The position numbers were made by a program, and so were the translations under genes. Positions 1 through 64,000 of a stretch of 64,000 bases of DNA are shown piece by piece. Source of the DNA: Bilabrum cf. latius (taxonomy: Eukaryota); the NCBI GenBank assembly GCA_965178125.1, contig OZ237768.1:496001-560000 (forward strand). Reading direction: 5' to 3'. How positions within the stretch are numbered: position 1 is the first letter of the stretch; each line of letters opens with the position of its first letter. Below the pieces are notes generated by a model. That model was not told the DNA's origin. It saw only the letters and a program-made list of their open reading frames with translations, and did no database searches.

Positions 1-2698
1 CCACATCCACGCACACAGTGATCGGAGCGTTGATGTGGATCGAGTCCAGCGCATGCACCCACCTGGCCGCTGCCGCGTCCCGCTTGGTTGCCTTGGCTGC
101 CATCACCATGGACCCGTATATCCCGTGCTTGTCATCAGGCGTCTTGAGGAACAACCCGCGGTGGATGCAGCGACCTTTGGCACCGCCAGCAACACCACCA
201 GCTGAGCTAAACACTTCCAAGAGCGATGCAGGTCTCGGCACCAGTGCGGTCTTACTCTGAGCAGGTGAACTTTCGGCATGCGCATGCACCGCGCCTGGCA
301 GCTCCCGGGCGGCCTGTAATGCATGCGACAAAAATCGATCTCCGATGGCTTGGATTGTTTTCACTCGCTGCGATTCTCTGTAAGGATTATCTGCAATGTC
401 GAAGCGAGTCTTGTCGATGGCAGTCTGTGGGTAGCTTACTATGAGCTCATTGTCGATTGAGCCCACCTCTACAGGACGCTTGCCTGCGTTTCCAACAACT
501 ACATCGGCCGTTCGAGAGGCACGGGCAGGCGAAGCACCGCTACCGGTGGCAACAACAACGCTGCATTCCTGCACAGTTGTCGCAGCTGGAGATCGATCGA
601 TGCCAGAGCCGTCTGATTGAGTCAGCGCACTCGCTGCGCCACTCGCAAGCTCTGCGCCCGGATCTGCTACTGCAAGACCTGCCTGTTCACTTGCCGGGTC
701 AATCTCGTGAGCATCCAGAGCAGGTTCATATGACTGAAGCACCCGCTCGTCTTGAAGCTCCTCTTCTGGAGACAGGAGCACGCTGGAGTAGCCCTCGGCC
801 AGTGCAGCCAGCCGTTCCGGTACGGGGGCTTCTGCATCTAGATCTAGCTCATCCGCCTCCAGTATTGCATCGTAAGCACCTGCTGCTGTCACAGCCACGG
901 CAGCTCCGGCACCGGAAGCAGGCCCCAGTGAGCCAGTTGCTCCGATTCCAGTTGCAGTGGCAGTGGCAGTGGTACTGGTCTCGGTCGTATCTATCGGTTC
1001 TTTCCCGAGTATTTGGGCGATCGTCAACTGCGAGTCGCGAATGCTTTCATCCGCAGATTTGCCGAGGTAGTGGGTGCCAGAGCTGCCCACGCCAGCGGGT
1101 GCCGGCTGCGTGGCTCCACCAACCCCCGACATGGGGGGATCTGGCCATCCAGAGGACGCTGCCGACTTGCTGCCGGGATCCAGGTCGGATCCACCGGTGG
1201 ATTCTGATTTACCCAGGAGCTCTTCCATGAAGCTCTTGCTGTCGGCGGTTTCCGCCGACCATTCCGCACCGATCCCCCTTGCCTTCTTGATCCGATCTTC
1301 CCGCGCCTTCAGCCCCGCCCCCTTGATCACATTCTCCACCTCCTTCGCAACCTGCCCGACTGACGCAGGCCCTGGCCCGGCCACACCCCCTGGTACTGCC
1401 TCACTGGCCTCCTGCAGCTCTGCCAGCCGCTTCATGAACCCGCCCTCAGAGGCAGCCAGGTCGCACGCCTCTGGCACCCAGTAGCACACGTTGCCCAGGG
1501 CAAGCAGCAAGAGCCGCTCTGCCGTCATGAGCTCTTTCGTTGCGGCAGGCCCAGACAACGTCGAGACAGTACTGGCAGTGGTGCTTGTGCTTGCGAATCG
1601 AGCCGCGGTCGCAGGCTGGCCATCACCACTTCTATTAGTACAGCTTCTTGCGGATCCCGCAGCAGCGCTCGCTTGGCTCGAGGCGGTCCTGATGCGCATC
1701 TTGGCCAGCTCTTTGTTCGACAAGGGCCTGGTCGGCGGAGCTTCGTGTTCAGTAGCCCCGCCAGATGCAGCTGACCCCGACCCCCTGGTGGGTGCACGGG
1801 ATGGTGGTGCGCCAACTGGGCCCAGGATGGGTGTGCTTACCACGGGGGACCCCGGTCCCGGTAACGATTCGCTCTCGATTAGCATCGACCGCAAGGAGCT
1901 GAGCTGCACCAGAAGCTTACGGATAGTGTTGATGGCTCCGTCTTGTTGGGGACACGACGGCTCCTTCGCGGTAGCTGCCGCCGACGGTTCCGATTGATCA
2001 GCCTCGTGCGCCTCCACTTGCTAACCAAGCACGACTGTGGCATTCAACATCAAAGCAGCTGTGGTTGCAATAAGCTTCGGTTCGCTGCTTTCAAGTGATT
2101 TGTCCAGAATCTCCACCAGTTGTCGAATCGAAACACGCGGTGGCAAGATCTTTGATTCACGTGGCGCGGCTTCCCCATCAGCACAAAGCTTTGGTGAAGA
2201 CGCCATCGAAGCTTGATCACACTGCTTTGGCCCTGTCTATTCATTGTCCAGCCATGAGACTGCGGTAGCTTGCGCTGCAACACACGCTGCAAGCATCTCT
2301 GCTGCAAGCCTCCGGCCGCCATTGGAGCGTTCGGTGCAAGGAGCAATGGCAAGAGCTCGGACTACCAGCTCATGACCACGCGCCCGCAGGATATCGTGAA
2401 AACTATAGATAAGGCTCATGCCGCGAACCAAATCGAATGCGAAGTTCAGCTTTGCATCCGTCCAGCGCCCAAGCTTGTTCAAGACTGCATCGATCTCAGC
2501 TGATTCAAACTATACCGAATGGTGATAGCCTGTATCTGCCACCTTCTCACAGACGCTTGCGATCGCTTCGAAATCTCTCTCGCTGAGTTTGCTGCTTGCA
2601 TAATTCTCGATCTAGTCGTTCAACTTGCGTAGCTTTGGTACCAACTTAGACTCTTTGAGAATTCTCCCGAATGCAACACTTGCTCTATATGGGTACAT
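1..2698 (-). CDS. Hypothetical protein, 3' end outside the window; 4 in-frame TAG
   Basis: ORFs 2237..2482 and 2021..2206 share a frame and are joined through TAG at 2612, 2510, 2237 and 2021. The first in-frame ATG is at 2698 (MYPYRASVAFGRILKESK...). Below 2021 the frame appears open to the window edge. The start is uncertain and no family was recognised. Confidence 0.6.
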
Positions 2699-2927
2699 CT
2701 AGACTAGAGCGTACGATTCAAGAACTGTATGGTAAAAGCAGTCCCGGGGACGCAAAGTAGACCGAGCAAGTTGCGACCAACCCGGCGGCGGGCGGGCCCA
2801 GCGATTGTACAGGTTGCAACCGCGACCATAAACGGATCGATCTAGTGTTTACACCTTTGCGTGGAGTTCGAGACACCGGAATCAAAAGTTACCGGGCTTT
2901 TTATACCCAACACTACGTACATTCCGA

Positions 2928-5900
2928 ATGGCAGGTCGGAAAGAGAGCCCAAGATACGCCTTTGGACGTTACGCCGGCGCTGGAGTGAGATGGCTATCGC
3001 CTTAGTTTGTTGTGAATGGTACTTGCGCCCTACTCGTCTACAATCCTGTCGCTTGCATTTGTTCAACTATTTAAACAATCTTGCAGGGTATTGCCAAAGG
3101 AGATCGCTCTCATTTGGACGAAGCAGAGCTAGCAGAGTTCGACTGGCAGCGAAACACTTTTAAGGATGCAACTGACAAGCCGTATTGGCTGCAAGGAGAT
3201 GCCGCCTTCGACTCCAAGACTAACAAATTTAGGCGAAGACAGATTCGCTACTAGAAGCCAGTGAAAGACGCGATTCGTGCCCTATGGGTGCTCTTCAAGA
3301 AGGACCGCGCAATGACGGTCAGCAAGAGCGAGTACGTCGCATTCCTGATGCGAGTTTGTAAGCTTGTGATTCCTGACTTGGATAAAGACAGGGCGAAGGA
3401 ATTGGCGATGGACGACTGGGCAAAGGACTCCCGTGGGAGCAAGACGATGTCCTACAAGCACTTCATGGATGCAGTGAGATGCTCGATGAGGTCCATCAGC
3501 GCGTTGCACGTTGAGGCGGTTGCACCGCGGCCCGCGCGACGTGCTTCTTTTTCCTGTAGTCGCACACGGCATGCCCTTTCGTGTTGCTGCTGGAAATTGC
3601 TGCCTACTCCTTGACCCTCCCATCCCATCCCATCCAATGATGATATGCTCGCTCGCCTGCCCGATTGGGAGCCTCCTCAGAATGCTCGCCTCCCATCCCT
3701 CCATCCCTCCCTTCCCCCGTCGCTCGCTCGCTCGCTCTTGCGCAGATGTTCGAACTCGCCGACATGTGGTGCCCCACCATTGAAGCCAACGACTACGCGA
3801 GGCTCCTTAGGACAGTGAGGTTCAAGCTCACGCGAGTTGTGGTGTCCTCGTCCTCGGGCAGTGCAAGGGGCGGCAAGAGGGGCAGAAACAAGAACAAGCG
3901 AAGACTCAGGGCCGTCGTCCGCAGGGTCACGCCGGGGGAGGCAGAGAGGCTCACGAGAGAGAGGGCAAATCAGCTCAGGGGACGCCCGGGGGATCTGCTG
4001 CGGTACCTTGGAAAGCCGGCGGATGGTTCCGCTGGGTTGCGCGGCGCCGGGAAGGGTGCCCAGCAGACCCGCGGTCGCTCGGCCGAAGGTCGCGTATCCG
4101 GAGGTTCCGCTAGTGGCAGCGGCGGCGCCGCGCGCAGCCAGGCACGGCAGGCGCGCAGTGCTTCAGGTTCCCGCACCACGTCTGGGCGTGCGGGCCACAT
4201 CGCCCGCCCAGTGGTGAAGCATGGGGAAGTGGTCCCCCACAAGCAAGGGGGTGACTGGGATAGACCCTGGAGGAGGGGGGGGTCACCCCCCGCCAACCGG
4301 AGGGGAAAGAAGGTTCGCTCGAGTTCGGGCTCTCAGGGCATGCCAGCCGGCAAGGGTCGCCTCGGGGGCGGCGGGTCCCTTTCGGCGCGGGGCGCCGGCG
4401 GAGTGTACTCGTCACACAGCAGGAAGTCCCGCGATGGGGGGGTCTCCCCCAGCACAGGGTCCCGGTCCCTGCAGCACGCGGCCTCCCACGACGATCTGAT
4501 GGCGGCTGTGGGCACGGTCTTCGGCGGCCTTGGGGGTGCAGCGAACGGTGGTGCGGGACGCGACCGTGCGATGCACGACGAGAAGAAGAGCGGGGTGGCG
4601 AGGGGGGTGCCCCTGCCTCCTCCCGGACTGGCCGCCGCCGGACCCAGCGTTGCCGGCAGCGTCACGGGAGACTCGGCGAGCGGGTCGGGATCCGGAGCCG
4701 GAAGCGTGGGCGGGGAAGAAGGTGGGCACGAAAACGAAGATGAAGACGATGACATGCTGGCCATCGGACTTGCCACCGGCATGGATATGGGCATCGCACT
4801 GCCGCACAAGCGCCGCTCCCCCTCCCCAGACCATGGGGGACCCGCCCACAGGGGACTGGCACCGCCTCCGGGGGTAAGCGAGGAACCTTCGCTGGCCAGC
4901 ATGCGAAGCGCGGGGAGGCACTCACAGGCATCGTTGCTGTCAGAGTCTTCCGTGGGAAGCGTGGGATCGACCGGATCCTCCGCCAGCAGGCGCAGGCGAA
5001 AGCGCGGTGCTGTGCGTGGCAGTGGCAAGGACTCGCAGGCGATGCGGGGCCACCTGCCTCCACCTCTAAACCGCGGCGACAGCCACATGGATGAGGGTGA
5101 CTCGCACTCGGTGTCCAACCACAGCCACGCCAGCAGAGGACATTCGCCTTTGCCTCCTGGTCTGGAGCCCGTGTGGGACGCAGCGGGGGAAGAAGGTGCA
5201 GTCATGGCTGCGGATGGCCTGCCCGCGCCTTTGCCCACCAGGGAGGTGGACAGAGACGAAGAGACGGGAAACGATGCCGACGTGCAGCTGGGGGTGTCTG
5301 CATTCAGCTGGGAAGCGCCTGATGGCGTGGAGGATGGCGTGGAGGATGGCCAGCACGGCGACGGTTACGGCAAAAAACCAGACGATGGGGCTGATGAGTC
5401 CGCGGGTGGCGACGGCCTTGTGGACTGGGTTGAGATCATGGAGGAGGACGAAGATGGGAACCTGGTGGCGGCAGATCTGGGCAGGAATGACCGCGTCAAG
5501 ATCGAGTGGGCACAGCTGTCCGAGATTGAAGTGGCGGATGAGCTGCTGCCACCCTCACCCGAAGCATCAGCTGATGCCGGCAACGGGCCTGAGAGGGAGG
5601 GGGAGGGGCCCGCCAGCGGTGCAGGCGCGAACGAAGGGCTGGGACATTCCGAAGCGGCCAAGGAGGAAAGGGAGGCAGGCTCGGCAGGCGCGGGCGGGGC
5701 CAGCGCAGCCGCTGGGCGATCTGGCTCGCCCAACCGGTTTGGGTCTGACCCTCAGGCAGCGAGGCTCAGCGTGGACATGGACTCGGCGCAGGAAGTCAGC
5801 GGGTTCCAGGTCAACCTCAGTCCCGACGAGGCCGCTAAACTGCGGAACCAAGGCGCCGCGCGCACCACTAGCAGCGTGCATCGCGACGGGGACTCGACTA

Positions 5901-8900
5901 GGACCGGTGCATCGCATTCCACGTCATCGGGCTCCGGTGCGCGTTCTCCGTGGGCTGCTGCCGGGATGGCAGCCAAGGCAGCTGGCGTGGGCAAGGCCAA
6001 GTCGCGGTTTCACGGCATCTTGGCTCGTCACAGGGAGCACAAGGAGGCCGAGAGGAGGCAGGGGCAGGGCTCCGGTGCCACTGCCATGGTCGCTTGGCGG
6101 AGGATGCGATCAGCAGTGCGACCCGCGCTGGGTCTTGCGGCCATGTTCTCGCCCGCAGCCGCACATGCAGACCAGGACAACGCGGGTACAGGGTCGCCAC
6201 TCGGCTCTACCTCTGGCGACGGCGGCGGCAGCGGCAGCGGGGAGACCCCTCTGTCGAGATCTTTGTCAAGGCAGGGTACCGGTCGCGGCAGCTTCCAATC
6301 CGATGGGTCCGTGCGACACAGCAGTCCCAGTCCCAGCTCTGCAGCAAGCGGCAGTCAGGGCCGCAGCCCATTACAGGTGACTTCCAGCGTAAAATCGCTC
6401 CTGAGCGTAGCGTCAGCCATGCGCATGGAGCATCTCCTCAAATCGGAGGGGTCGGCGGCTTTCCTCGCCAAGCACTCAGTCAACGGGATGCCGCACCCTG
6501 GCATGATCATCGCAGCCAGGCGAGCCGCAAGAACCTGGCTGCGGACCACCCAAGAAGGCGGGAATCAGTCTCCCGAACGAGGCGGCGGTGATGGTGGGAC
6601 GTCATCGCGAGGCAGTCGCTCGCTCGTGTCCAGTGGCAGCCAGGGAGCCGGCGAGCTGATTCACGCCGGCGAGGGCGATTTGGGTGTGACCCCCATGGTG
6701 ACTTTTGGTGGGCACGTGTACACGTTTAGTGAGATTGATGCGCTCGTCGACGAGCCTGATTTTGACCTGAACACGCCGAAGGGCGCCGCTGCCGGAGGGG
6801 CGGGCCCCATGCCCAGGAAGTCGTCGGTAACCGACCAGGAGGCGCCGGAGGGGACGCTGGATGGTTCCGCAGGCGCCGCGCAAGGCAAAGGGCTGTCTGT
6901 GTCCACGCACGCGCCCCCAACCGGCCGCTCCCCGCTGCAGTCTCCCTTGCTTTAGAGGAGAGGGGGTCGCGTGCCTGCCCTGTCCGTGGCTGTGGCACCA
7001 GCGAGCGCAAGCGAGGAAGCCGACGCTGAGGATGGCGGGGCGCACGGCGATGGCAACGCTGACACCGATGGTCAAACTGGCGTAGATACATCTGGTTCAA
7101 GGTCCTCCGATAGCCCGGACCCCAGCTCGACCGCATCTTCCATGGCGCAGTCGGCGCTGACCCCTCAGGCAGAGCAGGCGCGCGCCCAGTGCATGCGCCG
7201 CGCCTCAGAAATGGCGATGGAGGACCTACAGGCGGAGCAGGTGGAATCCAACAAGGCGCACAGAAGCTCGCAACTGGGCCTTCACGTTGATGTGACGAGT
7301 GATCGGGAGGGCTCGGATGGTGGTACCCCTGAGGGCAAGCGGGACGAGGACGAGGGCGACGGACAGGGAACCAAGGAGCTGCCGGAGGGGGAACAGCCGT
7401 ACGCCCGATCGGCTGACGTATCGGCCGTGGTGCCTCACCTGCCCGAGTCGCTTGTAGACGTGGACGGGGGGCGTTCTGCGGACGACCAACTAGCCGTTGA
7501 GCTGTCTAGGGAGACCGGATCCCAAGAGGGCGAAGAGACCAAGGAGGGTGATGACGAGATCGACGCAGGGCAGGGTGCACCCGCGGACACCGGCATCACA
7601 GGGACACGTGGGCTGGACGTCCCGAGGCTGTGGGTGACGCACGACTTCGACCCATCCGTGACCGGAGATCCCAGCGACAGTTTCGCTTCCTCTGCGAATG
7701 GGGCGCTGCAGCTGCGCCTGAGGACGCACGCGCTGGCTCGCGGCCTCTCGAAGGCAATCGGGTGCGTGCTGCTGACTCGCGAATCCGTGTGCGAGCAGGC
7801 TTGGCGCCTCGTTGAAGAGGAAAGGGGCGAGTGGGAGAGGGACGAAGCGGCCGCCCTGAAACTGGAGCAGATCGTGCTGGAAGAGGAGCAAAAATGGAGG
7901 AAAAAGGAGGTAGCTAGGGCAAAGAAGCTCTACCGCAAGGCAGTGAAGAAGATCAAGGGCAAGAAGGGTGGCAAGCTGGTTGGCAAGAAGAAGGCTCAGA
8001 TGGAGGAACTGGAGGCCAAAGGGCCGCTAAACAACGCCGGTGTGGCATCGGACGAGGACTGGCTGGCCGGCCTTAAGTCCGGAATCGTAACAAGGAAGCA
8101 GACGAGGGAGCAAGGACGGAGAGCAAGGTCCGTCACGACCCCGGCAGTGCGAGCTGCCGCTGAAGCCATGGCCCGGGGTCAGGCGGTGGGGCACGGCGTG
8201 GTGGCGATGCTGCTGGTGGAGGCAATGGTGGGATGCGTGGAGGAAGGGACAGGCTTCGTACTGCAGGGCATCGATGTGGAGGGAGAGGAATGGGGCAACA
8301 GGCTCCGTGCTGCCGCCAAGGCCTTTGTGATCGGCCGGACCAAGTACCAGAAATGGGCCACTAAGAAGGACAAGGAACGTTCGCTGGCTCGAGCCCGGGC
8401 CGTGCTTGAGGCCAACCGAGGCGTGCTGGTGGCAGGCAGGACTCGCGTCGCTTTTGGTGCCGCGGAGAGGACTCTTCTCCAGGAGACGATGGACAGGGCC
8501 GCAGCACTTCGAGGCGGTGAAGGAAGCGATGCAGTGGTTGATGGGAGTGGGGCACCGAGTGCTGACCAGGGCAAGGGATCCGGAGTAGGGACTGCGGCGG
8601 GAAGCGGCGCGGCTGCATCCGGCGCGGGCGAAGACGATGGTGCGGCTGCTCACGGGGACGAATCGAGCGGACCCAAACCAGAGTACCCCGTGCTGGGCCG
8701 CCTGCCCCTTGCCGCGCAAGCCGCGCTGCTTGGTGAAGACCCGTTGATCTCGGCTGCGGCTGCGTTCGGCGATGAGGAGGACCGCCGGATCGCAGTGGAG
8801 ACCGCCACTGGGGCGATCGAGGCATTCCACTGCGAGGCGGCCGATCGCGGGTTTGACGCCCAGATCCGGTTCGGGCCTCCGCTGTCTATTATCCGGAGCG

Positions 8901-36884: not shown

Positions 36885-37061
36885 GTCGGGATCCATACTG
36901 GTAGATTAATGCTGCGAGTGTCTTCCGATTTCCCCCTAAAAGGGTCCTCGCAAATGGTCGGATGGTCGCAGTGTTTCTGGACCTGCTGCCGGGAGCCGGT
37001 CGCAACCTATTTCGCAGAATCCGTGTCAATTGCGGAGGAAAACTGGTACATCAGCAACCAC

Positions 37062-38110: not shown

Positions 38111-38228
38111 TGCATACCTAGTAGGCCGAGCACGCTTGCCTTTCCTGTCACGGCATGTAAGCACCCGTACTACAAATCGAATGGAAATTGTACCCCACAA
38201 TGTCAGCAACCGCCCCACTCCCATTCCG

Positions 38229-40812: not shown

Positions 40813-40851
<39 letters not shown>

Positions 40852-42465: not shown

Positions 42466-42560
42466 GACAAGTGGATGAGTCTCAAGCTCTACCATTTTAA
42501 TACTACAGAGATCGATATTCGGGGGTAAAGTATCAAGGTGTGGCTCTGTGGCAAGCAATC

Positions 42561-45552: not shown

Positions 45553-45733
45553 GAGGCAGAGCGGGGCAAGCCTTTCGAGAGCGTGTAAGAAAGGCACGTC
45601 AGGCGAGATGTGCCGCTGCTGCGTGGAGAAGGTGTTGCTGGCGGTGCTGCGGCGGCGATGGGGCTTGACTGCCTCGCTCTGGTGGAAGCATCGTCTTCTC
45701 AGCTGCACACTGACCATCCGCCGAGTTTGTCAG

Positions 45734-50039: not shown

Positions 50040-50443
50040 GCTGTATCGTTCCTTAGTGGCAAGGTCACAATCCTTCGTCTGACGCCGATGTGCCCGAAGA
50101 TCTAGACGTGTTGGAGGCATCCTTAGACGAATCCTACCGTTTACTCTGTCTGAAGCAGTTGAAATTGGACCTATAAATGCTCACAATTCTTCAGTATCAA
50201 TGAAGAGAGGCATACATGGGCTCCGTATCCCCGCCCCCCGCGGGATAAGCCTCCGCGTTGCATATAGGCTTGCATCCAATTGATTGACTCGAATCCTCGT
50301 ATCCAGTTATATCCCGATGACAAGGTTCCTGAACTTTTCTCCTTGTTTTACAAATGTAAGCAAGCAAGAGCAGCATATCCGGACGGGTTTGTCAGAAGTT
50401 TTGATTCTAAAACAAGACTAGAGCTAGTTATTCTCGTTTTAAT

Positions 50444-53400: not shown

Positions 53401-54730
53401 GTGCCATCAGCGCGGCGTCCACTGATCGATAGCACGCAATGTAAACGGCAGAGATGGAGCCCTCGCTAACGTGACCCGCTTGCCTGACCTGCAGGGCCCG
53501 CTAGACTAGGAGCCTTCGGTCGCTGGGGGAGAGGGACTCTATGGCCTAGTTCATCTCGTACAACGATACTGACTCCAAGCTACCAATCGACTCGAATTGA
53601 CGTGCCAGCTCTATCATGGTTCCTGTTGATGCCAACAGAACGGCTGGTAACCCATCTGCTCTGAAGCCAGTACTGCGTACCTATGAGCGTTTGGTGATTT
53701 CCCTTACGATGGAGGCGTCACAATTCATTACCCAGAGTGTCAGCTCCCGCAGTGCCCCCTTGGTCTTCAGGGCCTCCCCGAGCCAGCGAGCACCATCATC
53801 ACCCACCTTGGTGTTCCTGAGATCCAGCTACTGCAGGGCCCCGTTGGTCTTCAGGGCCTCCCCGAGCCAGCGAGCTCCATCATCACCCACCTTGGTGCCA
53901 CTGAGATCCAGCTACCGCTGGGCCACGTTGGTCTTCAGGGCCTCCCCGAGCCAGCGAGCCCCATAATCACCCACCTTGGTGCTCCTGAGATCCAGCTACC
54001 GCAGGGCCCCGTTGGTCTTCAGGGCCTCCCCGAGCCAGCGAGCACCATCATCACCCACCTTGGTGTAATTGAGACCCAGCTACTGCAGGGCCCCGTTGGT
54101 CTTCAGGGCGTCCCCAAGCCAGCGAGCCCCATCATCACCCACCTTGGTGCCACTGAGATCCAGCTACCGCAGGGTCCCGTTGGTCTTCAGGGCCTCCCCG
54201 AGCCAGCGAGCACCATCATCACCCACCTTGGTGTAATTGAGACCCAGCTACCGCAGGGTCCCGTTGGTCTTCAGGGCCTCCCCGAGCCAGCGAGCACCAT
54301 CATCACCCACCTTGGTGTAATTGAGACCCAGCTACAGCAGGGTCCCGTTGGTCTTCAGGGCCTCCCCGAGCCAGCGAGCACCATCATCACCCACCTTGGT
54401 GCCACTGAGATCCAGCTACCGCAGGGTCCCGTTGGTCTTCAGGGCCTCCCCGAGCCAGCGAGCACCATCATCACCCATATTGGTGCCGCCTAGATCTAGC
54501 TTCTGCAGCGTCAATATATGTTTAAGCAGACTTCCAAGGGCCCATATAGCCTGTTCAGGCATCTGGATGCCAATCATATCGAGAATTCGGGGATCTTGGC
54601 TTCGGTTCATTGCCATCAGGCATCCGATCCGCTCTTGCATCCACTTACGCATAGGCAACAAACGGGATCGGACTACACCATATAGATCCGGAGTGATTTC
54701 ATCGCTTGACGCTTCTCGGTGCGAACCCAT
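50444..54730 (-). CDS. LRR (ribonuclease-inhibitor type) + helical region + PINK1-like protein kinase (~1,430 aa); ~17 in-frame TAG
   Basis: ORFs 54416, 52298, 51086 and 50444 share one frame, with only TAG between them. Kinase motifs GDGVNGFVF, LAVKG, CPHIVPVLHSF, VMPRYPTSL, VHRDIKADN, DFG, RAPE, ADAWA. It ends at TGA. The start at ATG 54730 is tentative. Confidence 0.8.
53740..54510 (-). repeat. 84-bp tandem array encoding 28-aa LRR units (LR*LDLSGTKVGDDGARWLGEALKTNGT), about 9 near-identical copies
   Basis: Exact 84-nt periodicity. TAG sits in the same column at 53828, 53912, 53996, 54080, 54164, 54248, 54332 and 54416. Confidence 0.95.
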
Positions 54731-55604
54731 CGCTTGACGCTTCTCCTGGAGCCATTCTCGGCATAAAGATTGCAATAACTCTGCATGTCGTCCACGAATC
54801 TAGAATTATATGGACAATATTGAGATGTTGGCAAGCAATTGTCTCATTTATGTCTCATATTCATGTTGTGCTGACCCTCTTTACGCAACAGTTGAATCTT
54901 GGTTAGTCTGGTAGGGCTCACTAGCTCGTCTGCATCATAAAATGCAGGTTTACCACCACCAGATGTTTGGACTAGCTTTTGTTCGAGCAAAGATGGTATA
55001 AATAGAGACTTTTTCCGGCATGGTATGACACCTGACGGCACTCTCAATCGTGCCTCGAATCACCACCTATGTTGCCTAACAACGGATACAATACTTCGTA
55101 AGCAAAGTAGCGCGGCAAGATTTTCCATTCCGTTTACACCAATATGTCCTTAGCCTATTCGTAAAACCCTCGATAGCTAGATAAGGCGCTTGTACCTGGG
55201 CGGCTATGCCCGGCATCAGTGGGCCCACTTTTCCATAAATTGTCGCACGTAACTTCGATGGATTGGTCAAATTGATACAGTATATGGATCTATCTGTTTG
55301 TTTTTCTTATTCAAGGCAAGAATTGGTGGAGATTAGCGTTAATTGGAGGCATGAACCGGAAAGAGAGAAGCGTCAAGCGATGGGTTCGCCGACAGGCAGG
55401 CCTGCCAGAGCCCGCGAGACGCCAACTTTGTGTGGCCCGTACACTCAATCAAAGTGATTATACGGTGCTTAAGCGATCAATTATCAATATTTATTACTTA
55501 TTTTCCATCATGGTGTATAGTAAGTGTGCAATGCAGTCGAAATAGACTCACTACAAGGGACTGAAAACAGCCAGAAGCGTCAAGCGATGAAATCACTCCG
55601 GATC
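54685..55604. repeat. Nested inverted repeats around an AT-richer core (possible MITE-like element)
   Basis: 54685-54716 is the exact reverse complement of 55573-55604 (32 bp), and 54721-54745 of 55365-55389 (25 bp). All four arms share the core ATCGCTTGACGCTTCT. Confidence 0.7.
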
Positions 55605-57063
55605 CTTTTGTTGACTTGACCCGGCACCACATAGCTTCGCAAGCCGAGTGCGGATCGAGTCGATGGCTTCCCTCTCAGTAACGGGAAGAATCGGCCTCAC
55701 AATCCGCGAGTATTGCTCGAGTGTACGTTTAATAGCGAGCTAGTTGCACTCGTACCGTTTATGCTCTGCCTCGAGTGTTCCCAAATTGTGCTCTGCCCCC
55801 GCCCTCGAGATGTTATCATCAAGCGGCAGACACACCACGCATACCCGGGACAGCGGCTTAGAACTAGCTCCATTCCCTCGCTCGCGACCAGCCTCAATCA
55901 ATCTGCGAATCACGATTGGGCCTCCTCGCATAAAGCACACATACACGATGCGACGGAGGGAACTTGCGTCTGCAGAAGTTACAGCTGCACCGTCACTGGC
56001 GCCAGTACCGCTCGTCCCCCCCGCAGCAGCACCTCCAGCAGCACCCGCCTCCACACCCGCGGGCTCGTACTAATAGGCCCATCCGCGCAGCCACTCAGGG
56101 TTGTACAGAGTTATGTTCATGTGCTCACGCTGTGCCTGTCGCGTGCGCTCCACCGTGCTAATGGGCACGCCGGAATCGTACGTGTAGTTGATGGAATGGA
56201 TGCGGCCAGACCCCCTCAGCGCCTTGAGTCCGATTATTTCCAACTTATCTCGGCCGAAGACCGCCCGATGGCACCTGTGCTACCACTCTGATGGGGCGCT
56301 GGACGGGTTGATGGGCGAGTAGCGGTATCCGAAGTAATTATCCTCCGTAAGGTCCTTGTAGGCGATGTGGGGGTCGCAGCCCGTCTCGGCCCCATGTGGC
56401 GGCATCACGGCTATTTTTGGTTTATTGGGCCAGGCTTGAGCAGAAAGGCGAGCAACGGCTTCCAAAAGGCAGTGCATGACCTGGGATCGATTCATGCCAT
56501 CATGGCACACGGGAACGACGATGTCCCCCGGCCGCAACAGCGCGATCTGTCGAGCCATGAGCGGCCCGGTTGCATCAGGGTACCCATTCGGCCCTGGTTC
56601 AGGAAATATAGACTCTTCGTCATCCGTCACGCGAATCTGCAAGATGACGAAGAGTCGGAGACATTCGGCAGTTTGTGATAGAGACGGCGCACAAAGCAAC
56701 AACATGCACTTAACATTCGAAGAATCAACAATAAGAAATAATCGCATCTTGTGGGAGCGGCAAATAATGCCTAAATTCGCACGTTCTTGTAAAGCACCAT
56801 GGCTGAGATCCTGGCTGTCGACAAACCACGCCAATTCTCACAGTCCCCCCAAGGCTTTGAAAGCAGTCGGTCTAACTCTTCAGGTACTCATGATTTTCGC
56901 GTATCAGTTCGGCGTAGCGCTCGAGCCTAGCCTGATCAAGACCAGTCTTGGACAAGATGTCTAATCCCTCCAGATCCAGGCCCGGGATCTAGTTGACAAT
57001 AACGTGAGTCCCCTCAACCTCAGGGAAAGTAGATTCATGAACTGTTGCACCTTGACTAGCCAT
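55593..57063 (-). CDS. CX5R-motif phosphatase-like protein (~421 aa); 5 in-frame TAG
   Basis: Exons 57063-56842 and 56636-55593 (intron 56637-56841, GTGAGA..CAG). Contains IVVPVCHDGMNRSQV, a beta-strand followed by C-X5-R-S as in the P-loop of LMW-PTP/arsenate reductase/Ssu72-type enzymes. It ends at TGA. Confidence 0.65.
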
Positions 57064-57413: not shown

Positions 57414-60400
57414 TCATACATCACCTCCAGCGGTTGCAGCGGGCTAGTGACCACCTTCCTAGATCCCCAGCAAGTCAGCAAGCGCGGTGCAGCACGCCTG
57501 CATGTAGGCAGATGCCCCATCACGCGCAAATACGCTCCGGCGCAGGTGCCTGTCCCACACGCTTGCCTCTCCTGGGAGCAAGAACAGCATACCACTGCGA
57601 GAAACTGCACCGGCTTCGACGTCTGCCACCGGTGCCACCGATTTCATGGTGCCGATGGTGGGTGCCTGCAGCAGAGACATCAGTGCTGCCTCCGCTCCTG
57701 TTCGCCCCATGGATGACGCGGCACCTGACGCTGCCAACCCATGCGGTGCATCGCCGCTCTAGAGTGCAGAGGGGGGCAGGAACTCGTGAGCACCAGCAAG
57801 TCCCAGTGAAAGCGAGTTCGCCTGCTGGTTGCTGCTGCAGGCCACCGAGCTGTCAGAAACGCAGCGCCGCAGCTCATATGACATCGTGCTGTCCTCGCGC
57901 ATCAGGGGCTATCGCATACCACCGTTGATAGAGAAGGAGTCTTGCCGCTGTAATTGAGGCGGGCGTACTTGCTGCTCCTGGGCGTACGCTTCGGCCGAAT
58001 CGGGCCGGTCGCTGTCTGGCGTGTGGTAACCGTCCAGCCCTCCAGCGATCTCTCTCGTCACCGGCTCGATCGCTTCATCGGCGTGGTCCAAAGCGACCAC
58101 GTGGTCCACAACGAATCGAGCTGCAGCCTCCCTGCTGGATGCCACATGAGCCACATCCGCCGTGGTTGTAGGCCCGTACAGTGCCGCAACCAGGGCCATG
58201 CACGCTTTTTTCGAGCTCAGTCGGCGGGAGGGGTCCCCCTGCAGCAGGCCTCGCAGCACCGCCTTGATCACGTCGCCGCACACTGAGTGGTGTGTCGTGT
58301 CATCGTGCTCATCCACCGGATCAGGAAGGTCCCCGTTGGAGTATATCCGGGTCGTATCGGGAAACGGCTTGCGAGTCACCCGCCCCTCCAGCCTCCACGG
58401 AAGCGACTTCCGAATCAGATCCCAGATGAGCCTGGCTGCGGCCCACGGCTCTGAGGACGTCATCACATCAGCCATTGGCTTGTCTCCCACCACTGTAGCT
58501 GCATCTTGACCAGTGCTCACCCCGGCAAGCGCGATGATTTCCGGTGCCCGCGTGCAGAAAGCACCGCCAACGTTGTTGTCCTGCTGCACTTCCGTAAAAG
58601 TAAGTGCCTGTGCTCCTGGAGCAGCCATCAAGAATGGGCCTCCTCTATCGGGATGCATGCGACTTCCTGGTGCAGGCGTGGTCCCTGCTGCACCTGCTGC
58701 TCCTGCTGCACCTTCTGCTCCTGCTGCTCCTGCTGCACCACCGCCCTGGGCCTGTGTATGCCCGCTTTCTGATCCCTGTCCAGAGGCACCATCACTTTCA
58801 TTGTACATCACGCAGGCCTCGCCAAAGTCTCCGAGTACAACCCGACCGTCCTGTGTCAGGAACACGTTGTCTGCCTTGATATCCCGGTGCGCAACCCCGC
58901 GGGCGATGGAGTGCTGGATCGCCTCGAGCAGCTGCAGCAGCCACAGGCACAGCAGTCGCTAGCTGAGACCATGTGCACCATCATCCAGTATAGATAAAAC
59001 GGTTTCAAGACTTGCCGGATACCGATGAAATACGCTCCAGCGCGTGCGATCAGCGATTGCTCTGCCTGCGGTTTCAAGCCACCCAGACCCGATCCACGGA
59101 ACCATAAGCTGGATAGATCCCGTGAAAGAGTGCCGCACTTGCGCTACATTTGGATGCGGGGCCAGGCAGGGCGACATGCTCGGGGCGATATCTAGCGAGC
59201 TCGCAACTGACGATGCATCCTCATGTTCGGTGACATCTCGTTGGGGAAGGGAAGTGCGCCGCTCCTGGCCCTGCTGGCTTGCCATAGGAGAAATTTCCCC
59301 ACGAAGCCAGAGCAAAGGATCTCTGAAGAAGCGGTCGTCGAAATCGTCACTTTCCCGGGCCAGCAAATTGTCAATCAGCTCTTCTTTGCGGAATATATCT
59401 TCTGCCTCGGCATCTGGGTCGAGATCCGGAGGTGCATCTCTGCCAGCCTGCATGCCGCGATGCACGCGATTCAGGGGAAGGCCTCCGCGCAACACGGCGT
59501 GATTCACAACGGATCGACTCGCACTGCTTTTAGACTGCAGCGAAGTTTCGTCTCTGTCTGGTGCTTCGCGGTGCCGACTAATAGGATCAAGTGAATGCCC
59601 AATGTAGCGAATCGCAAACACCACGGCATTGCAGCCCTCCCTTCGAGAGGTGCCGTCTGCCGGGTCGCTGACTGGCCTGGCCCTCCCAGTCTGCAGCTGT
59701 GTCTCGTGCTCTCTTGGATGCGTTCCCGGGGGGAATCTAACTTCCTGTGCCTGACCCCTGGCGCCATCACGGGCGTCAACGACTCTGAATTTCCCATGGC
59801 AGAGCGTGCTCTCGAGCTCGTGCACTGTGCCAACAGACCCCAGGTCAATCGTACCGCATCTGAGATACTGGATGCGTGGATGCGATGCCGTCCAGTCTCC
59901 TCTGAGATTTGGAGGCAAAGCCAGTTGTTCTGTGGTCCTGATCACGCTGTAGTAATGTCTCCATCGCCGTACAGCTCTGTGCCTGGCTCTAGCTAGCGTT
60001 GCAACCACCACATCTGGCTTGTCCTAGTCGGCCGATGTACCAGTCAATCTGGGTCGCACACTAGTTTCTGCTGATATCCACGCCGTTGTGAGCTGCTCAG
60101 CTGTGGGAGGCTATTTCTGGCTCTCGGTTTTCTCTCCCCGGTCCATGAGTAGCTGGTACAGGGGCAGTTTGGAGGACCTGTCGTACAGCCGCTGGCCAAG
60201 GACCTGCCTTGTGAGTGACTTTGCTCCACTTGTCAAGTCTGCAGTGGCTTCATCACACGCAAGTTGCGTGCCAAGCTAGACTGCAAACCAAAGAGCTACT
60301 AGCACAACTAGGCACTGCATGGCAGTTAACATCACCGTCTGCAGGTTCCAAGACCATAACCCGCTGGAGTACACCACGTACTCTATAGCAACAATGGGAA

Positions 60401-62885
60401 GGAGGGCGATGAACTCCGTGGCTACTGCACCTCTATACTCGACCAGACCCAAGGGAATCCACGAGAGTGAATTAGTACAGAATCGCGACCTGAGTGAGGC
60501 AACGAGTCGCAGCACAATGGCAGTGCCTTCGATTGCAATGATCACAGCTAGCATCCAAGAGGCAGGCGCAGATGCAGACATCCCGAACATGACCACAGCA
60601 ACCGAATGCCCATGGAGTGCCACTGCTGGGACAAATTGAACAGCAGGCACGACGGCAAAGCCAGCCCCAGTTACTGCAAGCATCGCCACTGTCTATACGC
60701 TGTCAGCGACAGCAGTGCTGAACAGCATACCTGGCGTGCATCTGCGTGCCTGGCACACCGAGGTCACATTGCCAGCACCAGCAAACCTCGTGTTGGATTG
60801 CTCATTGCATGCAGTTTCAAGCATGCCGGCGTATCGATGCCAGAGAGAACTGCCTCCGTACAGGTCCTGCGCGTCAGCTGGCCCAAATGGCGCTCTGCAT
60901 TTGATGCACTGGCCAGTCTCACAAGAGGCGCATCTGTCGTCACACACCAGGTATGGGTAGTTGAAACCGCTTGGAGATGGCGATGGAGTCTGGGAAGAAC
61001 CTGGCGTTGGCTTCTGGCTGGGTGAGCAACTGGGACTACCAGATGCAGAGGGAGTCGGCGATACAAATGGAACCTGCGGAAAACACACCTGACACAATTT
61101 AACGTAGCGATGCCATTTAAAATATGCTTCAGATCATACGATTGCAATGATATTATCACACATCAAGATATATTTTTGCCGTTTCGGACTCACATGAGAT
61201 ATTGCAGGGGTTCTAGTTGGGCTGCCTGAAGTTGTCGTTGTTGGCACCGGAGACGCCGTGGTCGTCGTGTTGGGCGTGGACGATGGAGACGGTGCAGCCG
61301 GGGATGCCGTGGTCGTCGTGCTGGGCGTGGACGATGGAGACGGTGCAGCCGGGGATGCCGTGGTCGTCGTGTTGGGCGTAGGCGATGGAGACGGTGCAGC
61401 CGGGGATGCCGTGGTCGTCGTGTTGGGCGTGGACGATGGAGACGGTGCAGCCGGGGATGCCGTGGTCGTCGTGTTGGGCGTGGACGATGGAGACGGTGCA
61501 GCCGGGGATGCCGTGGTCGTCGTGTTGGGCGTGGACGATGGAGACGGTGCAGCTGGGGACGGCGATGGCGACGGCGGTGGCTTTGTGCCGAAACCAAGCA
61601 TCGTTCCACCGGTAGTTACGACCACGCCGCTGGTCTAATCCGGACCAATGATAGATCCGTACTGCACCTGATCGCCAGCGGCAAGCTGCAGCCCCACGTC
61701 CCAATCGACCAACTTCTGGCTCGTGTCAATGTGATTGACCTGCCCTTGCTCGGTTGTTACGAAGAGGTTGTAGCAATAGTCGCATCCTTTCACTTTTGAA
61801 GAGGACATGATGGGGGCGATGGTGCTTGACCCCAAGGCCTTCCATTGGTCGTTATAGTCGATCTCTTTGCCAATTACACCATCCATGCCCCCAGTTATCA
61901 GATATTCCCCTAATATGAGTACCTGAGCGCCTGAAAGCTACCAAGGGCTGTAAGTTGCGCCGAGTGACTTCCCATTTGATTTCTTGAAGCACTCCATGAT
62001 GTTGGGCGTGCACCACCCTCCCCGCACCCGCTGGCCCTGCTGATGCGTCGTTGTCAGCGTCCCGAGGACGTGGCATACCCCTGGCGTGTCTCTGAATACT
62101 ACGGGCAAAATAGCCTCGTATGCGTCGAAACCGTCTTTGCCCGCTGGACTGTGGGACCATAATAGGGTTCCGCTCGCAAGATCGAAGGCCTTGACGGTTC
62201 TTGCCGCGCCTACGAAGACCGTGCCGCCTTCCACCAGAGGCGTGACCGCGTTGGTGATAAGAGGAGCGTAGCTACCGTCCGAACGGTCCCGAATGTTTGC
62301 GATCTGTTGCTGCCAGAGAAGCTTGCCTTCGTTTTTGGAGACCTTGTATAGGACACAGCCAGCCACTGCAAGCACAGAGTCGCCAGCGTCAACCGGTGGA
62401 GCGGCCGGATTATCTGGAATAGCCTCATTTCCCAGCGTCCAAATCTGCTCTCCCGACTTGGCATCCCAGGCAATAAGTGCAGAGTTTTGGTCCTAGCCGC
62501 AAAGTGTGTAGACGGTACCGCCGTCTGTCGATAGCGTCGCTCCACTAGTTGGGCCGCATGCGCTCTTGAAGTCCTTCTCCCACTTGATCCGTCCAGACAC
62601 AGGATCAAGCAAGAACAACGTGTCCGGCTTTAGATCATCATTCCAAGTGGTCACAGCCACCGAATCCGCGTCGATTGAAGGAATTGTAAGCGAGGGTCCA
62701 AGCTTGACTTCCCACTGCTATTTTGGATCTGCAGTAAGTGCTCGCTCCTTGAACCGAAAAGCCATGGTGTTGTTTTTTCTCAGGTGTTCTGCACATGACG
62801 AACCAATCAGATACGAGACAAGGACAGCCAAGACGTACGAATGGGTCAGGGTTTTGCTTGATTTCGCTACCGTGTTCAATCGCAT
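57414..62885 (-). CDS. Receptor-like protein (~1,783 aa): signal peptide, PQQ/BamB-like beta-propeller, mucin-like stalk, Cys-rich segment, TM helices and PINK1-like kinase; ~13 in-frame TAG
   Basis: ORFs 61938, 61635, 61134, 60693, 60276, 58959, 57909 and 57459 share one frame. One intron (61074-61193, GTGAGT..CAG) removes the only internal TGA. Propeller motifs LDPVSGRIKW, AWDAKSGEQIW, AFDLASGTLLW. Kinase motifs EGCNAVVF, LAPHPNV, YPASL, LLQLLEA, AHRDIKADN, DFG, RAPE. It ends at TGA 57414. Confidence 0.8.
61255..61560 (-). repeat. 51-bp tandem repeat x6 encoding AAPSPSSTPNTTTTASP (mucin-like stalk)
   Basis: Six near-identical units starting at 61255, 61306, 61357, 61408, 61459 and 61510. 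Confidence 0.92.
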
Positions 62886-63157
62886 GGTACCAATTGTTTG
62901 GGCAAGTTCATCTGCAGCTGTTCATGGATTGCTGCAATGGTGAGAAAGCCAAAAACATTCCACCCGTGACGCCACTGGCACTCTTCATCTTCGGGAATTG
63001 GTACCAGCCAAAGCAGATTCTGCAGGAAGCGACATGCGTGGTGCTAGACTGTGTGTTGACACTCAATGAATTGATCCAGGCAAATATCAGCTGCTCACAA
63101 AACTATCATCGATAAGACCTGCTATGTATCCTCAATGCAGCGCTATCGCACTGGCAC

Positions 63158-64000
63158 TCACTGCCTCCACTCGCCCGGCAGGCCGTCTTCGTCCCCATCC
63201 CCCACCCCCACCCCCACCCGACTCAAGTCAGTCACGTCTCCATAAGGGTCAGGGTCTGATCTGGGCAAGCCACTGCCGCTACCACTGCCAGTGGCTACTG
63301 AGTGGTCATGCCCTGTGTCCTCTCGCGAGCTAGTCTGTCTGCCAGTGGTCACGTCATGCCCTTCGCCAGCACCCAATGGCAGCTCACTCGTCACAGCCCA
63401 CCTAGACACGTCCTTGTCGTGTATCCCACTACTGCCTGCACCATTCCGGTCCAGTCCCACCGCTCGACGAACCTTCTCCGAATGTTCCTTGAGCTCGGAC
63501 AGAGCTCCCGTCCACACGTGCGACAGCGTCTGGGCGCCTTCACGAACCTTCGATCGCGCGACTGACGCCGCCTCCATCCCGGCCTCTTCTGCCTTCGCCA
63601 CTGCGGTGGATGCAATGGTTCCGCTGGCCAATGCGCGGCGCCCCAGGGGTCCCTTAGCGGCTGCAGTCGCCTCGTCGTCGGCTGCACCACCGCCTCTTGA
63701 ATCTTCTTGCGCGTCCCTGATCCGCCGTCTGGATTCTTCGATGCTAGCTCTGGCTTTAACCTGAGAATCGGACCCGGAGTGACCGAAATCAGCCCTGGAG
63801 ATTTGTCGCTCGGTCCCTGCCTGCCCCACAGCGGCAAGCACGCCGGCAGAAACCGCCGTCGCTGCTCGGAATCGCCAAGGAAAATATCTAACTTGGTGCG
63901 TCCAGTTACGAGCTGCAAATTTGAATGGAAGCAAACGGCAGTAAATACTCGGACTATGGCTTGATTGGGCATCGACCGATCCAAAGCACATGCCGCAGTG
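63158..64000 (-). CDS. 3' part of a hypothetical protein (5' end outside the window)
   Basis: ORF 63158..63991 has Ala/Glu/Arg-rich helical composition and ends at TGA. Its first ~130 nt look intron-like. No family was recognised. Confidence 0.5.
   Translation of the reverse strand, partial: HCGMCFGSVDAQSSHSPSIYCRLLPFKFAARNWTHQVRYFPWRFRAATAVSAGVLAAVGQAGTERQISRADFGHSGSDSQVKARASIEESRRRIRDAQEDSRGGGAADDEATAAAKGPLGRRALASGTIASTAVAKAEEAGMEAASVARSKVREGAQTLSHVWTGALSELKEHSEKVRRAVGLDRNGAGSSGIHDKDVSRWAVTSELPLGAGEGHDVTTGRQTSSREDTGHDHSVATGSGSGSGLPRSDPDPYGDVTDLSRVGVGVGDGDEDGLPGEWRQ

What the first reader, a model, noticed from the sequence alone, without database searches (positions are those of the whole stretch)
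1..64000. Variant nuclear genetic code: TAG is a sense codon while TAA and TGA still terminate
Seen: in 11 genes on both strands, consecutive ORF fragments are in the same frame and separated only by TAG (more than 80 cases by manual count). The two giant genes alone carry 39 TAG, 0 TAA and 0 TGA in ~10,900 codons, with no frameshifts. TAGs fall inside intact conserved domains (VAMP7 longin and SNARE, apyrase, cyclase, kinases, NSE1, LRR). Homology-defined gene ends are TGA or TAA. Known: UAA and UAG are almost always reassigned together in eukaryotes. UAG-only codes are reported from very few lineages (e.g. the fornicate Iotanema, UAG=Gln; an uncultured rhizarian, UAG=Leu; some phyllopharyngean ciliates). 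Inference: this GC-rich protist with ~100-300 nt introns does not look like a ciliate and may be an independent, possibly undescribed origin. It would need a CUA-anticodon tRNA and an eRF1 that reads UAA and UGA but not UAG.
Basis: partly seen in the sequence, partly recalled or inferred. Interest (0 to 1): 0.96.

Follow-up and report, generated by a model that had tools for sequence, protein, structure and literature searches.

The report
Protist reads stop codon TAG as glutamine
This stretch of GC-rich nuclear DNA from an unidentified protist is written in a rare genetic code in which TAG means glutamine while TAA and TGA still end genes, apparently in a lineage different from those where this code has been described.

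Summary
Reading TAG as sense opens frames of 5443, 3093 and 2415 codons; reading TAA or TGA as sense does not. Eleven frames (18,423 codons) hold 100 in-frame TAG, 0 TAA and 0 TGA, although TAA and TGA are common off-frame.

Contigs from three runs filed under other organism names are spliced at GT..AG introns. They carry 11 of these TAGs unchanged, so editing and splicing-out are excluded for those sites.

Related environmental sequences also carry in-frame TAG, several at the same positions. Opposite a TAG they have glutamine in 13 of 19 comparisons.

VAMP7 ends at TAA in the window and in a relative; the apyrase gene ends at TGA in both.

So the code is UAG=Gln with UAA and UGA as stops (NCBI table 15 type). 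That kind is known from Iotanema and a few ciliates.

The window differs from those lineages: 60% GC, introns of 83-124 nt, TGA-dominant stops. Its lineage could not be placed.

No tRNA(CUA) or eRF1 could be examined, because no genome is held. Use of TAG also as a terminator is not excluded.

The parts
3644..19975 (+). Giant single frame of 5443 codons with 9 in-frame TAG, 0 TAA, 0 TGA; ends at TGA. No Pfam family. Language-model lead to adenylate kinase 9-like proteins for its last 1545 residues.
29437..36680 (-). 5' part of a giant cyclase gene (frame 29433-36680, 2415 codons, 15 in-frame TAG). First cyclase catalytic domain at its end. Relatives' fragments align here.
29300..29436 (-). Inferred 137-nt intron (GTGAGG..CCGCAG) that joins the two cyclase frames and restores the cyclase domain. 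One of the 14 TAG of the downstream frame lies in it.
   Evidence: inference from domain continuity; no RNA evidence here
20320..29299 (-). 3' part of the cyclase gene (frame 20320-29601, 14 TAG, one of them intronic). The second cyclase domain holds a TAG. Ends at TGA.
36681..36905 (-). Short conserved frame upstream of the cyclase frame. One of its TAG is conserved in the relative L001.
37062..38110 (+). VAMP7-like gene. Five exons: 37062-37210, 37294-37413, 37501-37582, 37669-37755, 37880-38110. Four GT..AG introns seen spliced in three runs. 4 in-frame TAG (37128, 37319, 37352, 37702). Stop TAA at 38108-38110.
38229..40213 (-). Apyrase (PF06079) gene. Exons about 39967-40213 and 38229-39862; intron 39863-39966 seen spliced. 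TAG at 39108-39110 inside the domain. Ends at TGA. Carries a long insertion shared with the relative.
43165..45552 (+). Ankyrin/coiled-coil frame with 12 TAG (some near its start may be intronic). Ends at TAA.
45714..50039 (+). Membrane-protein frame of 1441 codons with 8 TAG. Ends at TAA. The TAG at 49950-49952 is covered by a contig of run X5.
50444..54805 (-). LRR_6 plus protein-kinase frame of 1453 codons with 18 TAG. Ends at TGA.
53741..54508 (-). 84-nt tandem array (9.1 copies, 91% matches) that encodes the LRR units. 8 units carry TAG at the same position (L-R/Q/L-TAG-L-D/G-L).
55593..56837 (-). Frame of 414 codons with 3 TAG and no Pfam family. The TAG at 55740-55742 is covered by a contig of run X5.
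57414..61133 (-). Protein-kinase frame of 1239 codons with 9 TAG, one (residue 725) inside the kinase match. Ends at TGA.
61134..62921 (-). PQQ_2 beta-propeller frame of 595 codons with 4 TAG, 2 of them inside the domain match. Ends at TGA.
2..2848 (-). PUL-domain frame that runs off the window. 5 TAG, 2 of them inside the domain match.

Best explanation
The window is nuclear DNA of a GC-rich, intron-bearing eukaryote whose ribosomes read UAG as glutamine and stop only at UAA and UGA (the code listed as NCBI table 15).

Shown here:
- TAG lies in frame throughout many genes.
- It stays TAG in spliced transcripts.
- It is conserved, or exchanged mainly with CAG/CAA, in related species.
- TAA and TGA never occur in frame, and they end the two genes whose ends are fixed by homology.

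Inferred from established knowledge of such codes (PMC5304391, passages read):
- Decoding needs a tRNA-Gln with anticodon CUA. That anticodon pairs with UAG but not UAA, and most simply arises by one change in a duplicated tRNA-Gln(CUG).
- It also needs an eRF1 that has lost or weakened recognition of UAG while keeping UAA and UGA.

The trait is shared by several related lineages seen only in metagenomes and run assemblies, so it is a property of a clade and not of one strain.
For: 1. Frames. TAG-sense opens frames of 5443, 3093 and 2415 codons; TAA-sense or TGA-sense does not. Simulated sequence reached 568 codons at most in 50 trials.

2. Counts. In-frame TAG 100, TAA 0, TGA 0 in 18,423 codons. 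Off-frame counts are 121 TAA and 695 TGA.

3. RNA.
- Contigs of runs X5, X7 and X8 (two studies) skip four GT..AG introns of VAMP7 and one of the apyrase gene.
- The DNA run X4 runs through these introns.
- The listed pieces have 0 differences from the window.
- 11 in-frame TAG lie inside these pieces.

4. Relatives.
- L001, a 4002-bp metagenome contig, is syntenic with the window and carries in-frame TAG of its own.
- In the true frames 5 TAG are shared.
- Of the 10 TAG-versus-residue pairs, 5 are Gln (CAG 4, CAA 1); the rest are E, D, S, I and L once each.

5. Closer relatives.
- Their frame fragments are 76-97% identical to the window.
- They have Gln opposite the window's TAG in 7 of 8 comparisons (6 sites); the exception is Leu.
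- Four fragments end exactly where the window has TAG (3 sites). One ends where the window has Gln.

6. Score. The BLOSUM62 sum over all 19 residues opposite a TAG is Q 60, E 24, K 6, S -2.

7. TAA is a stop.
- VAMP7 ends at TAA a few residues after its membrane anchor in both the window and L001.
- If TAA were Gln with the CAA:CAG ratio (170:506), about 34 in-frame TAA would be expected; none is seen.
- In frames bounded by TGA on both sides, about 15 are expected and none is seen, P about 3e-7.

8. TGA is a stop. It ends the apyrase domain in both species and 9 of the 12 frames that end inside the window.
Against: - No tRNA gene lies in the window and no genome is held. The decoding tRNA and eRF1 are therefore unseen.
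- The amino acid is inferred from comparisons, not from peptides. 6 of the 19 residues opposite a TAG are not Gln (E, D, S, I, L, L).
- CAG-to-TAG is a single transition, so mutation bias alone inflates Gln/TAG pairing to some extent.
- Only two gene ends are fixed by homology, so use of TAG as a terminator in some contexts is not excluded.
- The RNA evidence comes from assembled contigs, which drop rare variants. The runs are only guessed to be RNA, and the tool flags X5 as 'probably DNA'. Their spliced joints are the evidence that cDNA is in them.
- For the protein fragments of relatives the codon at their ends is not visible. Only the coincidence with the window's TAG positions suggests it is TAG.
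Confidence: 0.87

Rival explanations
1. Ambiguous code: UAG is glutamine inside genes but also ends some genes, depending on context, as all stop codons do in Condylostoma and some karyorelict ciliates.
For: Only two gene ends are fixed by homology. All other ends were defined by me as the first TAA or TGA. Several frames have a TAG 14-29 codons before that stop.
Against: In-frame TAG is spread along the whole length of the frames, including relative positions 0.98-0.99, with no visible thinning near the ends. Both homology-defined ends, in two species each, use TAA or TGA. In Iotanema and the phyllopharyngean ciliates no such dual use was found (PMC5304391 section 7; PMC11687900 passages).
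Confidence: 0.07
2. UAG is a sense codon for an amino acid other than glutamine: glutamate, lysine, leucine as in the rhizarian exLh, or serine as in Scotinosphaera.
For: 6 of the 19 residues opposite a TAG are not Gln (E, D, S, I, L, L). Distant homologues have H, D, K, N or R at the cyclase-domain TAG column and E at the apyrase column.
Against: Gln stands opposite TAG in 13 of 19 comparisons. The BLOSUM62 sums are Q 60, E 24, K 6, S -2, with L lower still. TAG falls at polar, variable positions and not at conserved hydrophobic ones.
Confidence: 0.04
3. Ordinary coupled reassignment of UAA and UAG (NCBI table 6), with in-frame TAA merely rare because the genome is GC-rich.
For: TAA is the rarest of the three triplets in the window: 416 against 889 TAG and 1603 TGA on both strands.
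Against: There are 0 in-frame TAA where about 34 would be expected from the CAA:CAG ratio, and 0 where about 15 are expected in TGA-bounded frames. There are 121 TAA in the two other phases of the same frames. TAA ends VAMP7 just after the membrane anchor in the window and in L001, and similarity stops there.
Confidence: 0.02
4. No code change: the TAGs are removed or altered before translation (RNA editing, unnoticed introns), are assembly errors, or the genes are pseudogenes.
For: None found. Some TAG near frame starts and one in the cyclase gene do lie in likely introns.
Against: Spliced contigs from three runs keep 11 TAG with 0 differences. The independent DNA run X4 matches the window without differences across 36001-53789 in the listed pieces. 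TAG positions are conserved in relatives while the surrounding protein is 76-97% identical. About a hundred TAG and no TAA or TGA in 18,423 codons is not what decay would give.
Confidence: 0.01

Closest known systems
Iotanema spirale (Fornicata): UAG = Gln, UAA and UGA stop (PMC5304391, section 7 read)
   Same: Same codon assignment as inferred here: UAG is read as glutamine, is not seen as a terminator, and UAA and UGA are kept as stops. It was inferred in the same way, from glutamine at aligned positions.
   Different: Iotanema ends genes with UAA in 104 cases and UGA in 15. The window has TAA 3 and TGA 10 (Fisher p = 2e-6). Iotanema is known from a transcriptome of a gut anaerobe. The window is 60% GC genomic DNA, with relatives in metagenomes and an apyrase nearest to those of marine protists. 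The same organism is unlikely; their relationship was not tested.
Ciliates with UAG = Gln only: Hartmannula sinica, Trochilia petrani, Protocruzia tuzeti (PMC11687900, passages read)
   Same: UAG is reassigned to glutamine while UAA and UGA terminate (translation table 15). No sign of dual use was found.
   Different: Those genomes end 93.5-100% of aligned C-termini with UAA (PMC11687900 passages). The window is TGA-dominant, 60% GC, has introns of 83-124 nt seen spliced, and carries genes of about 16 kb on a contig of at least 64 kb. That ciliates are usually AT-rich with very short introns, and that phyllopharyngeans have gene-sized chromosomes, is recalled and not tested here.
Rhizarian exLh (UAG = Leu) and Scotinosphaera (UAG = Ser)
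   Same: UAG alone is reassigned in a non-ciliate nuclear genome, and UAA and UGA are kept as stops. exLh was likewise found inside sequencing runs filed under another organism's name (PMC5304391 passages).
   Different: The amino acid differs. Here Leu stands opposite TAG in 2 of 19 comparisons and Ser in 1 of 19, against Gln in 13. For Scotinosphaera I saw only one sentence, in PMC11687900.
UAR = Gln codes (NCBI table 6: many ciliates, ulvophycean green algae, hexamitin diplomonads, Amoeboaphelidium)
   Same: A stop codon is captured by glutamine, presumably through a tRNA-Gln derived from the CAG or CAA reader.
   Different: In those codes TAA is also sense and TGA is the only stop. Here TAA is never in frame and ends VAMP7 in two species.

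Membership tests
UAG=Gln, UAA/UGA=stop nuclear code (NCBI table 15 type) | UAG occurs in frame inside many protein-coding genes | tested here: met
   100 in-frame TAG in 11 frames plus 4 in VAMP7. 15 of them lie inside Pfam-matched stretches.
UAG=Gln, UAA/UGA=stop nuclear code (NCBI table 15 type) | UAG persists in mature mRNA | tested here: met
   11 TAG lie inside spliced or exonic contig pieces of runs X5, X7 and X8 with 0 differences. These are contigs, not raw reads.
UAG=Gln, UAA/UGA=stop nuclear code (NCBI table 15 type) | UAG is decoded as glutamine | tested here: met
   Gln stands opposite TAG in 13 of 19 comparisons with relatives. BLOSUM62 sums: Q 60, E 24. This is a comparative inference only; there are no peptides.
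UAG=Gln, UAA/UGA=stop nuclear code (NCBI table 15 type) | UAA still terminates | tested here: met
   0 in-frame TAA against about 34 expected. VAMP7 ends at TAA in the window and in L001.
UAG=Gln, UAA/UGA=stop nuclear code (NCBI table 15 type) | UGA still terminates | tested here: met
   0 in-frame TGA against 695 off-frame. The apyrase gene ends at TGA in the window and in L001.
UAG=Gln, UAA/UGA=stop nuclear code (NCBI table 15 type) | UAG is not used as a terminator | tested here: inconclusive
   Only two homology-defined gene ends are available, neither at TAG. There is no thinning of TAG towards frame ends.
UAG=Gln, UAA/UGA=stop nuclear code (NCBI table 15 type) | A tRNA-Gln with anticodon CUA and no tRNA with anticodon UUA | not testable with these tools
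   No tRNA gene in the window, no Rfam match, no genome held.
UAG=Gln, UAA/UGA=stop nuclear code (NCBI table 15 type) | eRF1 N-domain altered so that UAG is not recognised | not testable with these tools
   eRF1 is not in the window. There was no allowed query sequence and no genome.
UAR=Gln code (NCBI table 6) | TAA in frame as a sense codon | tested here: not met
   0 in-frame TAA in 18,423 codons. TAA ends VAMP7 in two species.
UAG=Leu code (rhizarian exLh; table 16 type) | TAG aligned with leucine in relatives | tested here: not met
   Leu in 2 of 19 comparisons.
Iotanema spirale itself | UAA as the predominant terminator (104 UAA : 15 UGA) | tested here: not met
   The window has TAA 3: TGA 10, Fisher p = 2e-6. 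Most window ends are first-stop ends, not homology-defined ends.
Pyrrolysine-type UAG recoding | Rare UAG in a few specific enzymes | tested here: not met
   TAG makes up about 13% of Gln-type codons (102 TAG, 506 CAG, 170 CAA) across unrelated genes.

The most novel reading that the evidence does not exclude
This is an independent and so far undescribed origin of the UAG-to-glutamine reassignment, in a GC-rich protist clade that ends most genes with TGA.
- At least four related lineages are visible: the window, L001, and two or three sets of run or metagenome fragments.
- The clade lies outside ciliates and fornicates.
- It arose in a base-composition regime opposite to the AT-rich, UAA-dominant genomes where this code has been found before.
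Probability: 0.5. Interest if true: 0.82.

Novelty: new member of a known kind. Interest (0 to 1): 0.72.

Why it matters
UAA and UAG almost always share one meaning. Each lineage that splits them tests why. One reason offered is that a tRNA with anticodon CUA reads UAG alone, whereas eRF1 must be retuned (PMC5304391 passages).

The UAG=Gln lineages for which I read stop usage (Iotanema, Hartmannula sinica, Trochilia petrani) end nearly all genes with UAA. In such genomes UAG may have become rare before it was captured. That last step is my inference.

A 60% GC genome that ends most genes with TGA, and spends about 13% of its glutamine-type codons on TAG, does not fit that route so easily. If the lineage is new, it would be a useful contrast for codon-capture against ambiguous-intermediate models.

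There is also a practical cost. Public protein sets already hold this clade's genes cut into pieces at TAG. Annotation with the standard code is therefore wrong for the whole genome.

Tried and rejected
- Whole genome: none is held, so no genome-wide codon inference, tRNA search or eRF1 search was possible.
- tRNA and RNA families in the window: none found.
- Earlier notes of this scan: nothing on this genome or on look-alike stretches. The word search gave only an unrelated phage note.
- RNA runs: no listed holder is on record as RNA. X5, X7 and X8 are guessed RNA, and I relied on their spliced joints alone.
- Paralogues inside the window: only one useful pair, the two kinases at 44% over 118 residues. 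Too little to read TAG from.
- Cyclase domain column at the TAG: H 12, D 7, K 6, N 5, R 5 and others among 45 alignments to distant homologues. The column is variable and polar, so it does not decide the amino acid.
- Lineage from the cyclase: only domain-level hits at 26-44% identity to ciliate, volvocine-alga and unnamed proteins.
- Lineage from the apyrase:
  - The window and L001 sit on a long branch inside an 11-row clade. Its only named member is a Symbiodinium sp. KB8 protein.
  - The wider clade holds Effrenium, Salpingoeca punica, Calcidiscus and unnamed marine sequences.
  - One patchily distributed gene on a quick tree (SH-aLRT only, 73 rows, chosen as hits of at least 250 residues from ranks 1-70 plus three others) does not place the organism.
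A TAG-free part of the giant gene gave only an adenylate kinase 9-like lead at score 0.90.
- NSE1: not recovered by Pfam on single frame pieces.
- Literature:
  - Five full-text searches on UAG reassignment, table 15, in-frame TAG/UAG and choanoflagellates and one on Scotinosphaera showed no report of a GC-rich non-ciliate eukaryote with UAG=Gln.
  - For these I read search listings only, apart from PMC5304391 and PMC11687900.
  - The library lacks most subscription journals, and supplements were not seen.


Full report
**What is in the sequence**

The window is 60.6% G+C. It holds no tRNA gene and no Rfam family at gathering score. No whole genome is held for it.

- Under the standard stops the longest frame is 1546 codons.
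- With TAG read through, frames of 5443 (3644-19975 +), 3093 (20320-29601 -), 2415 (29433-36680 -), 1453, 1441 and 1239 codons appear.
- Reading TAA through changes nothing at the top (1546). Reading TGA through gives 1600.
- Fifty first-order Markov simulations of the window gave a longest TAG-sense frame of 409 codons on average and 568 at most.
- In eleven frames on both strands (18,423 codons) there are 100 in-frame TAG, 0 TAA and 0 TGA.
- The other two phases of the same DNA hold 121 TAA and 695 TGA, so these triplets are not simply missing from the sequence.

- The two giant genes hold 38 TAG, not 39.
- The cyclase gene is two overlapping frames. A 137-nt GT..AG intron (29300-29436, minus strand) would join them and restore the catalytic domain. 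That intron is my inference from the domain and is not shown by RNA.

**The genes are real and TAG sits inside their domains**

Pfam finds these families:
- apyrase, 3e-70;
- two guanylate/adenylate cyclase domains;
- two protein kinases;
- LRR_6 repeats;
- PQQ_2;
- PUL;
- ankyrin.

TAG lies inside the matched stretches of apyrase (1), cyclase (1), kinase (1), LRR_6 (8), PQQ_2 (2) and PUL (2).

The eight LRR cases are copies of one 84-nt tandem unit, so they count as one event. NSE1 was not recovered by Pfam on the frame pieces I gave it.

**TAG is in the mRNA**

A search for runs that hold 36600-46500 found four DNA-like runs of 'organism A' with all sampled words. It also found four runs filed under other coded organisms with 23-41% of the words.

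I laid X5, X7, X8 and X4 on 36001-56000.
- The first three hold contigs that skip four GT..AG introns of a VAMP7-like gene and one intron of the apyrase gene.
- X4 runs straight through these introns.
- The listed pieces have no differences from the window.
- The spliced VAMP7 message is a 222-codon frame with four TAG and a TAA stop.
- In all, 11 in-frame TAG lie inside listed pieces of these runs.

Editing of the T, or removal by splicing, is thus excluded for those sites. The limit is that contigs, not raw reads, were laid.

**Relatives share the trait and point to glutamine**

The apyrase has a close relative in a metagenome (P0001). Its 4002-bp contig L001 (54% GC) carries apyrase, VAMP7 and the start of the cyclase gene in the same arrangement. 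It has in-frame TAG of its own.

In the true reading frames:
- five TAG are shared by both;
- of the ten places where only one of the two has TAG, the other has CAG four times and CAA once;
- GAG, GAC, AGC, ATT and CTT occur once each.

A search for shorter proteins with the 2415-codon frame found frame fragments of closer relatives, 76-97% identical, from two run assemblies and one metagenome.
- They show Gln opposite the window's TAG in 7 of 8 comparisons at six sites. The exception is Leu.
- Four fragments end exactly at a window TAG (three sites). One ends where the window has Gln.

Summed BLOSUM62 scores over all 19 residues opposite a TAG are Q 60, E 24, K 6 and S -2.

Distant homologues are consistent with a polar residue but do not decide. 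They have E at the apyrase column and H, D, K, N or R at the cyclase column.

**TAA and TGA are stops**

- VAMP7 ends at TAA shortly after its membrane anchor in the window and in L001, and similarity stops there.
- The apyrase domain ends at TGA in both.
- With 102 TAG, 506 CAG and 170 CAA in thirteen frames, about 34 in-frame TAA would be expected if TAA were glutamine too.
- In frames bounded by TGA on both sides about 15 are expected. None is seen.
- TAG is spread evenly along the frames up to their ends.

With only two homology-defined ends I cannot exclude that TAG also terminates some genes.

**Mechanism**

Shown: the codon's behaviour in DNA, in spliced RNA contigs and across relatives.

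Inferred from what is established for such codes (PMC5304391, passages and section 7 read):
- A tRNA-Gln with anticodon CUA reads UAG but not UAA. It is one change away from tRNA-Gln(CUG).
- eRF1 no longer recognises UAG efficiently.

Neither molecule could be looked for here.

**Comparison with what is known**

UAG=Gln with UAA and UGA as stops is the table 15 code. It is reported for Iotanema spirale and for the ciliates Protocruzia tuzeti, Hartmannula sinica and Trochilia petrani. UAG alone is Leu in the rhizarian exLh and some ciliate MAGs, and Ser in Scotinosphaera (PMC5304391; PMC11687900, passages read).

The window differs from those lineages.
- Iotanema ends genes with UAA 104 times against UGA 15. 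H. sinica and T. petrani end more than 93% with UAA.
- The window has TAA 3 against TGA 10 (Fisher p = 2e-6 against Iotanema).
- It is GC-rich and has introns of 83-124 nt.

So this is very unlikely to be Iotanema, and it does not look like those ciliates.

**What the organism is stays open**

- The cyclase has only domain-level relatives.
- In a quick apyrase tree the window and L001 sit on a long branch among unnamed marine sequences. Symbiodinium sp. KB8 is the nearest named protein. Effrenium, Salpingoeca punica and Calcidiscus lie a little further out.
- I take this as no more than a hint of a marine protist.
- Six full-text searches found no report that fits.

**Verdict**

I add that the amino acid is glutamine and that the trait is shared by a small clade.

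The kind of code is known. Its occurrence in a GC-rich, TGA-terminating, apparently non-ciliate lineage is probably a new member and possibly an independent origin.
- the assignment itself has precedents;
- the lineage is unplaced;
- the tRNA and eRF1 are unseen.

Noticed in passing
window 36600-46500 (runs X5-X8): The transcripts match the window with 0 differences in runs filed under three other coded organism names (B, C, D; three studies), while the DNA runs are 'organism A'. The organism may travel as a symbiont, prey, contaminant or under several names, as the rhizarian exLh did in insect data.
   Followed up: no
window 40670-41336: Summed contig depth jumps to about 31,000 in X4 (against about 45-50 nearby), and to 1300-2900 in the other runs. 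Many contigs break or loop back at 40803-40871. This is a GAG/GAC-type acidic simple repeat that recurs across the genome or in other organisms.
   Followed up: no
window 54787-55602: A second, diverged version of this stretch (45 differences and 3 gaps in a 705-nt contig) is present in both X5 and the DNA run X4, beside the window's own version. It is an allele or a recent paralogue.
   Followed up: no
window 38229-39110 and L001 1561-2125: The apyrase domain is interrupted near its end by an insertion of roughly 190 residues. It is shared with the relative L001 and is absent from the other homologues aligned (P0002, P0003).
   Followed up: partly
window 15338-19972: The last 1545 residues of the 5443-codon gene carry several copies of a cysteine-proline-valine motif. 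By language-model features they resemble adenylate kinase 9-like, cilium-associated proteins (score 0.90, a lead only). Pfam finds nothing.
   Followed up: partly
window 36001-36477 (X5 record 9): A 16,206-nt contig of run X5 enters the laid stretch here and runs leftwards. Its length matches the roughly 16.3-kb cyclase gene (20320-36680), so it may be its full transcript. I could not lay it on the rest of the gene.
   Followed up: no
window 61247-61559 and 43700-43904: Coding tandem repeats. One has a 51-nt unit in 6.1 copies (96% matches) that gives a Pro/Ser/Thr-rich stalk after the PQQ_2 domain. The other has 27/54/81-nt units that give an Ala/Gly/Pro/Lys-rich tract in the ankyrin gene.
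   Followed up: no
window 39967-40213: Contigs of two runs from different studies (X7, X8) both stop at 40213 with no extra letters. This is a weak hint at the 5' end of the apyrase mRNA, and no spliced-leader sequence is visible there.
   Followed up: no
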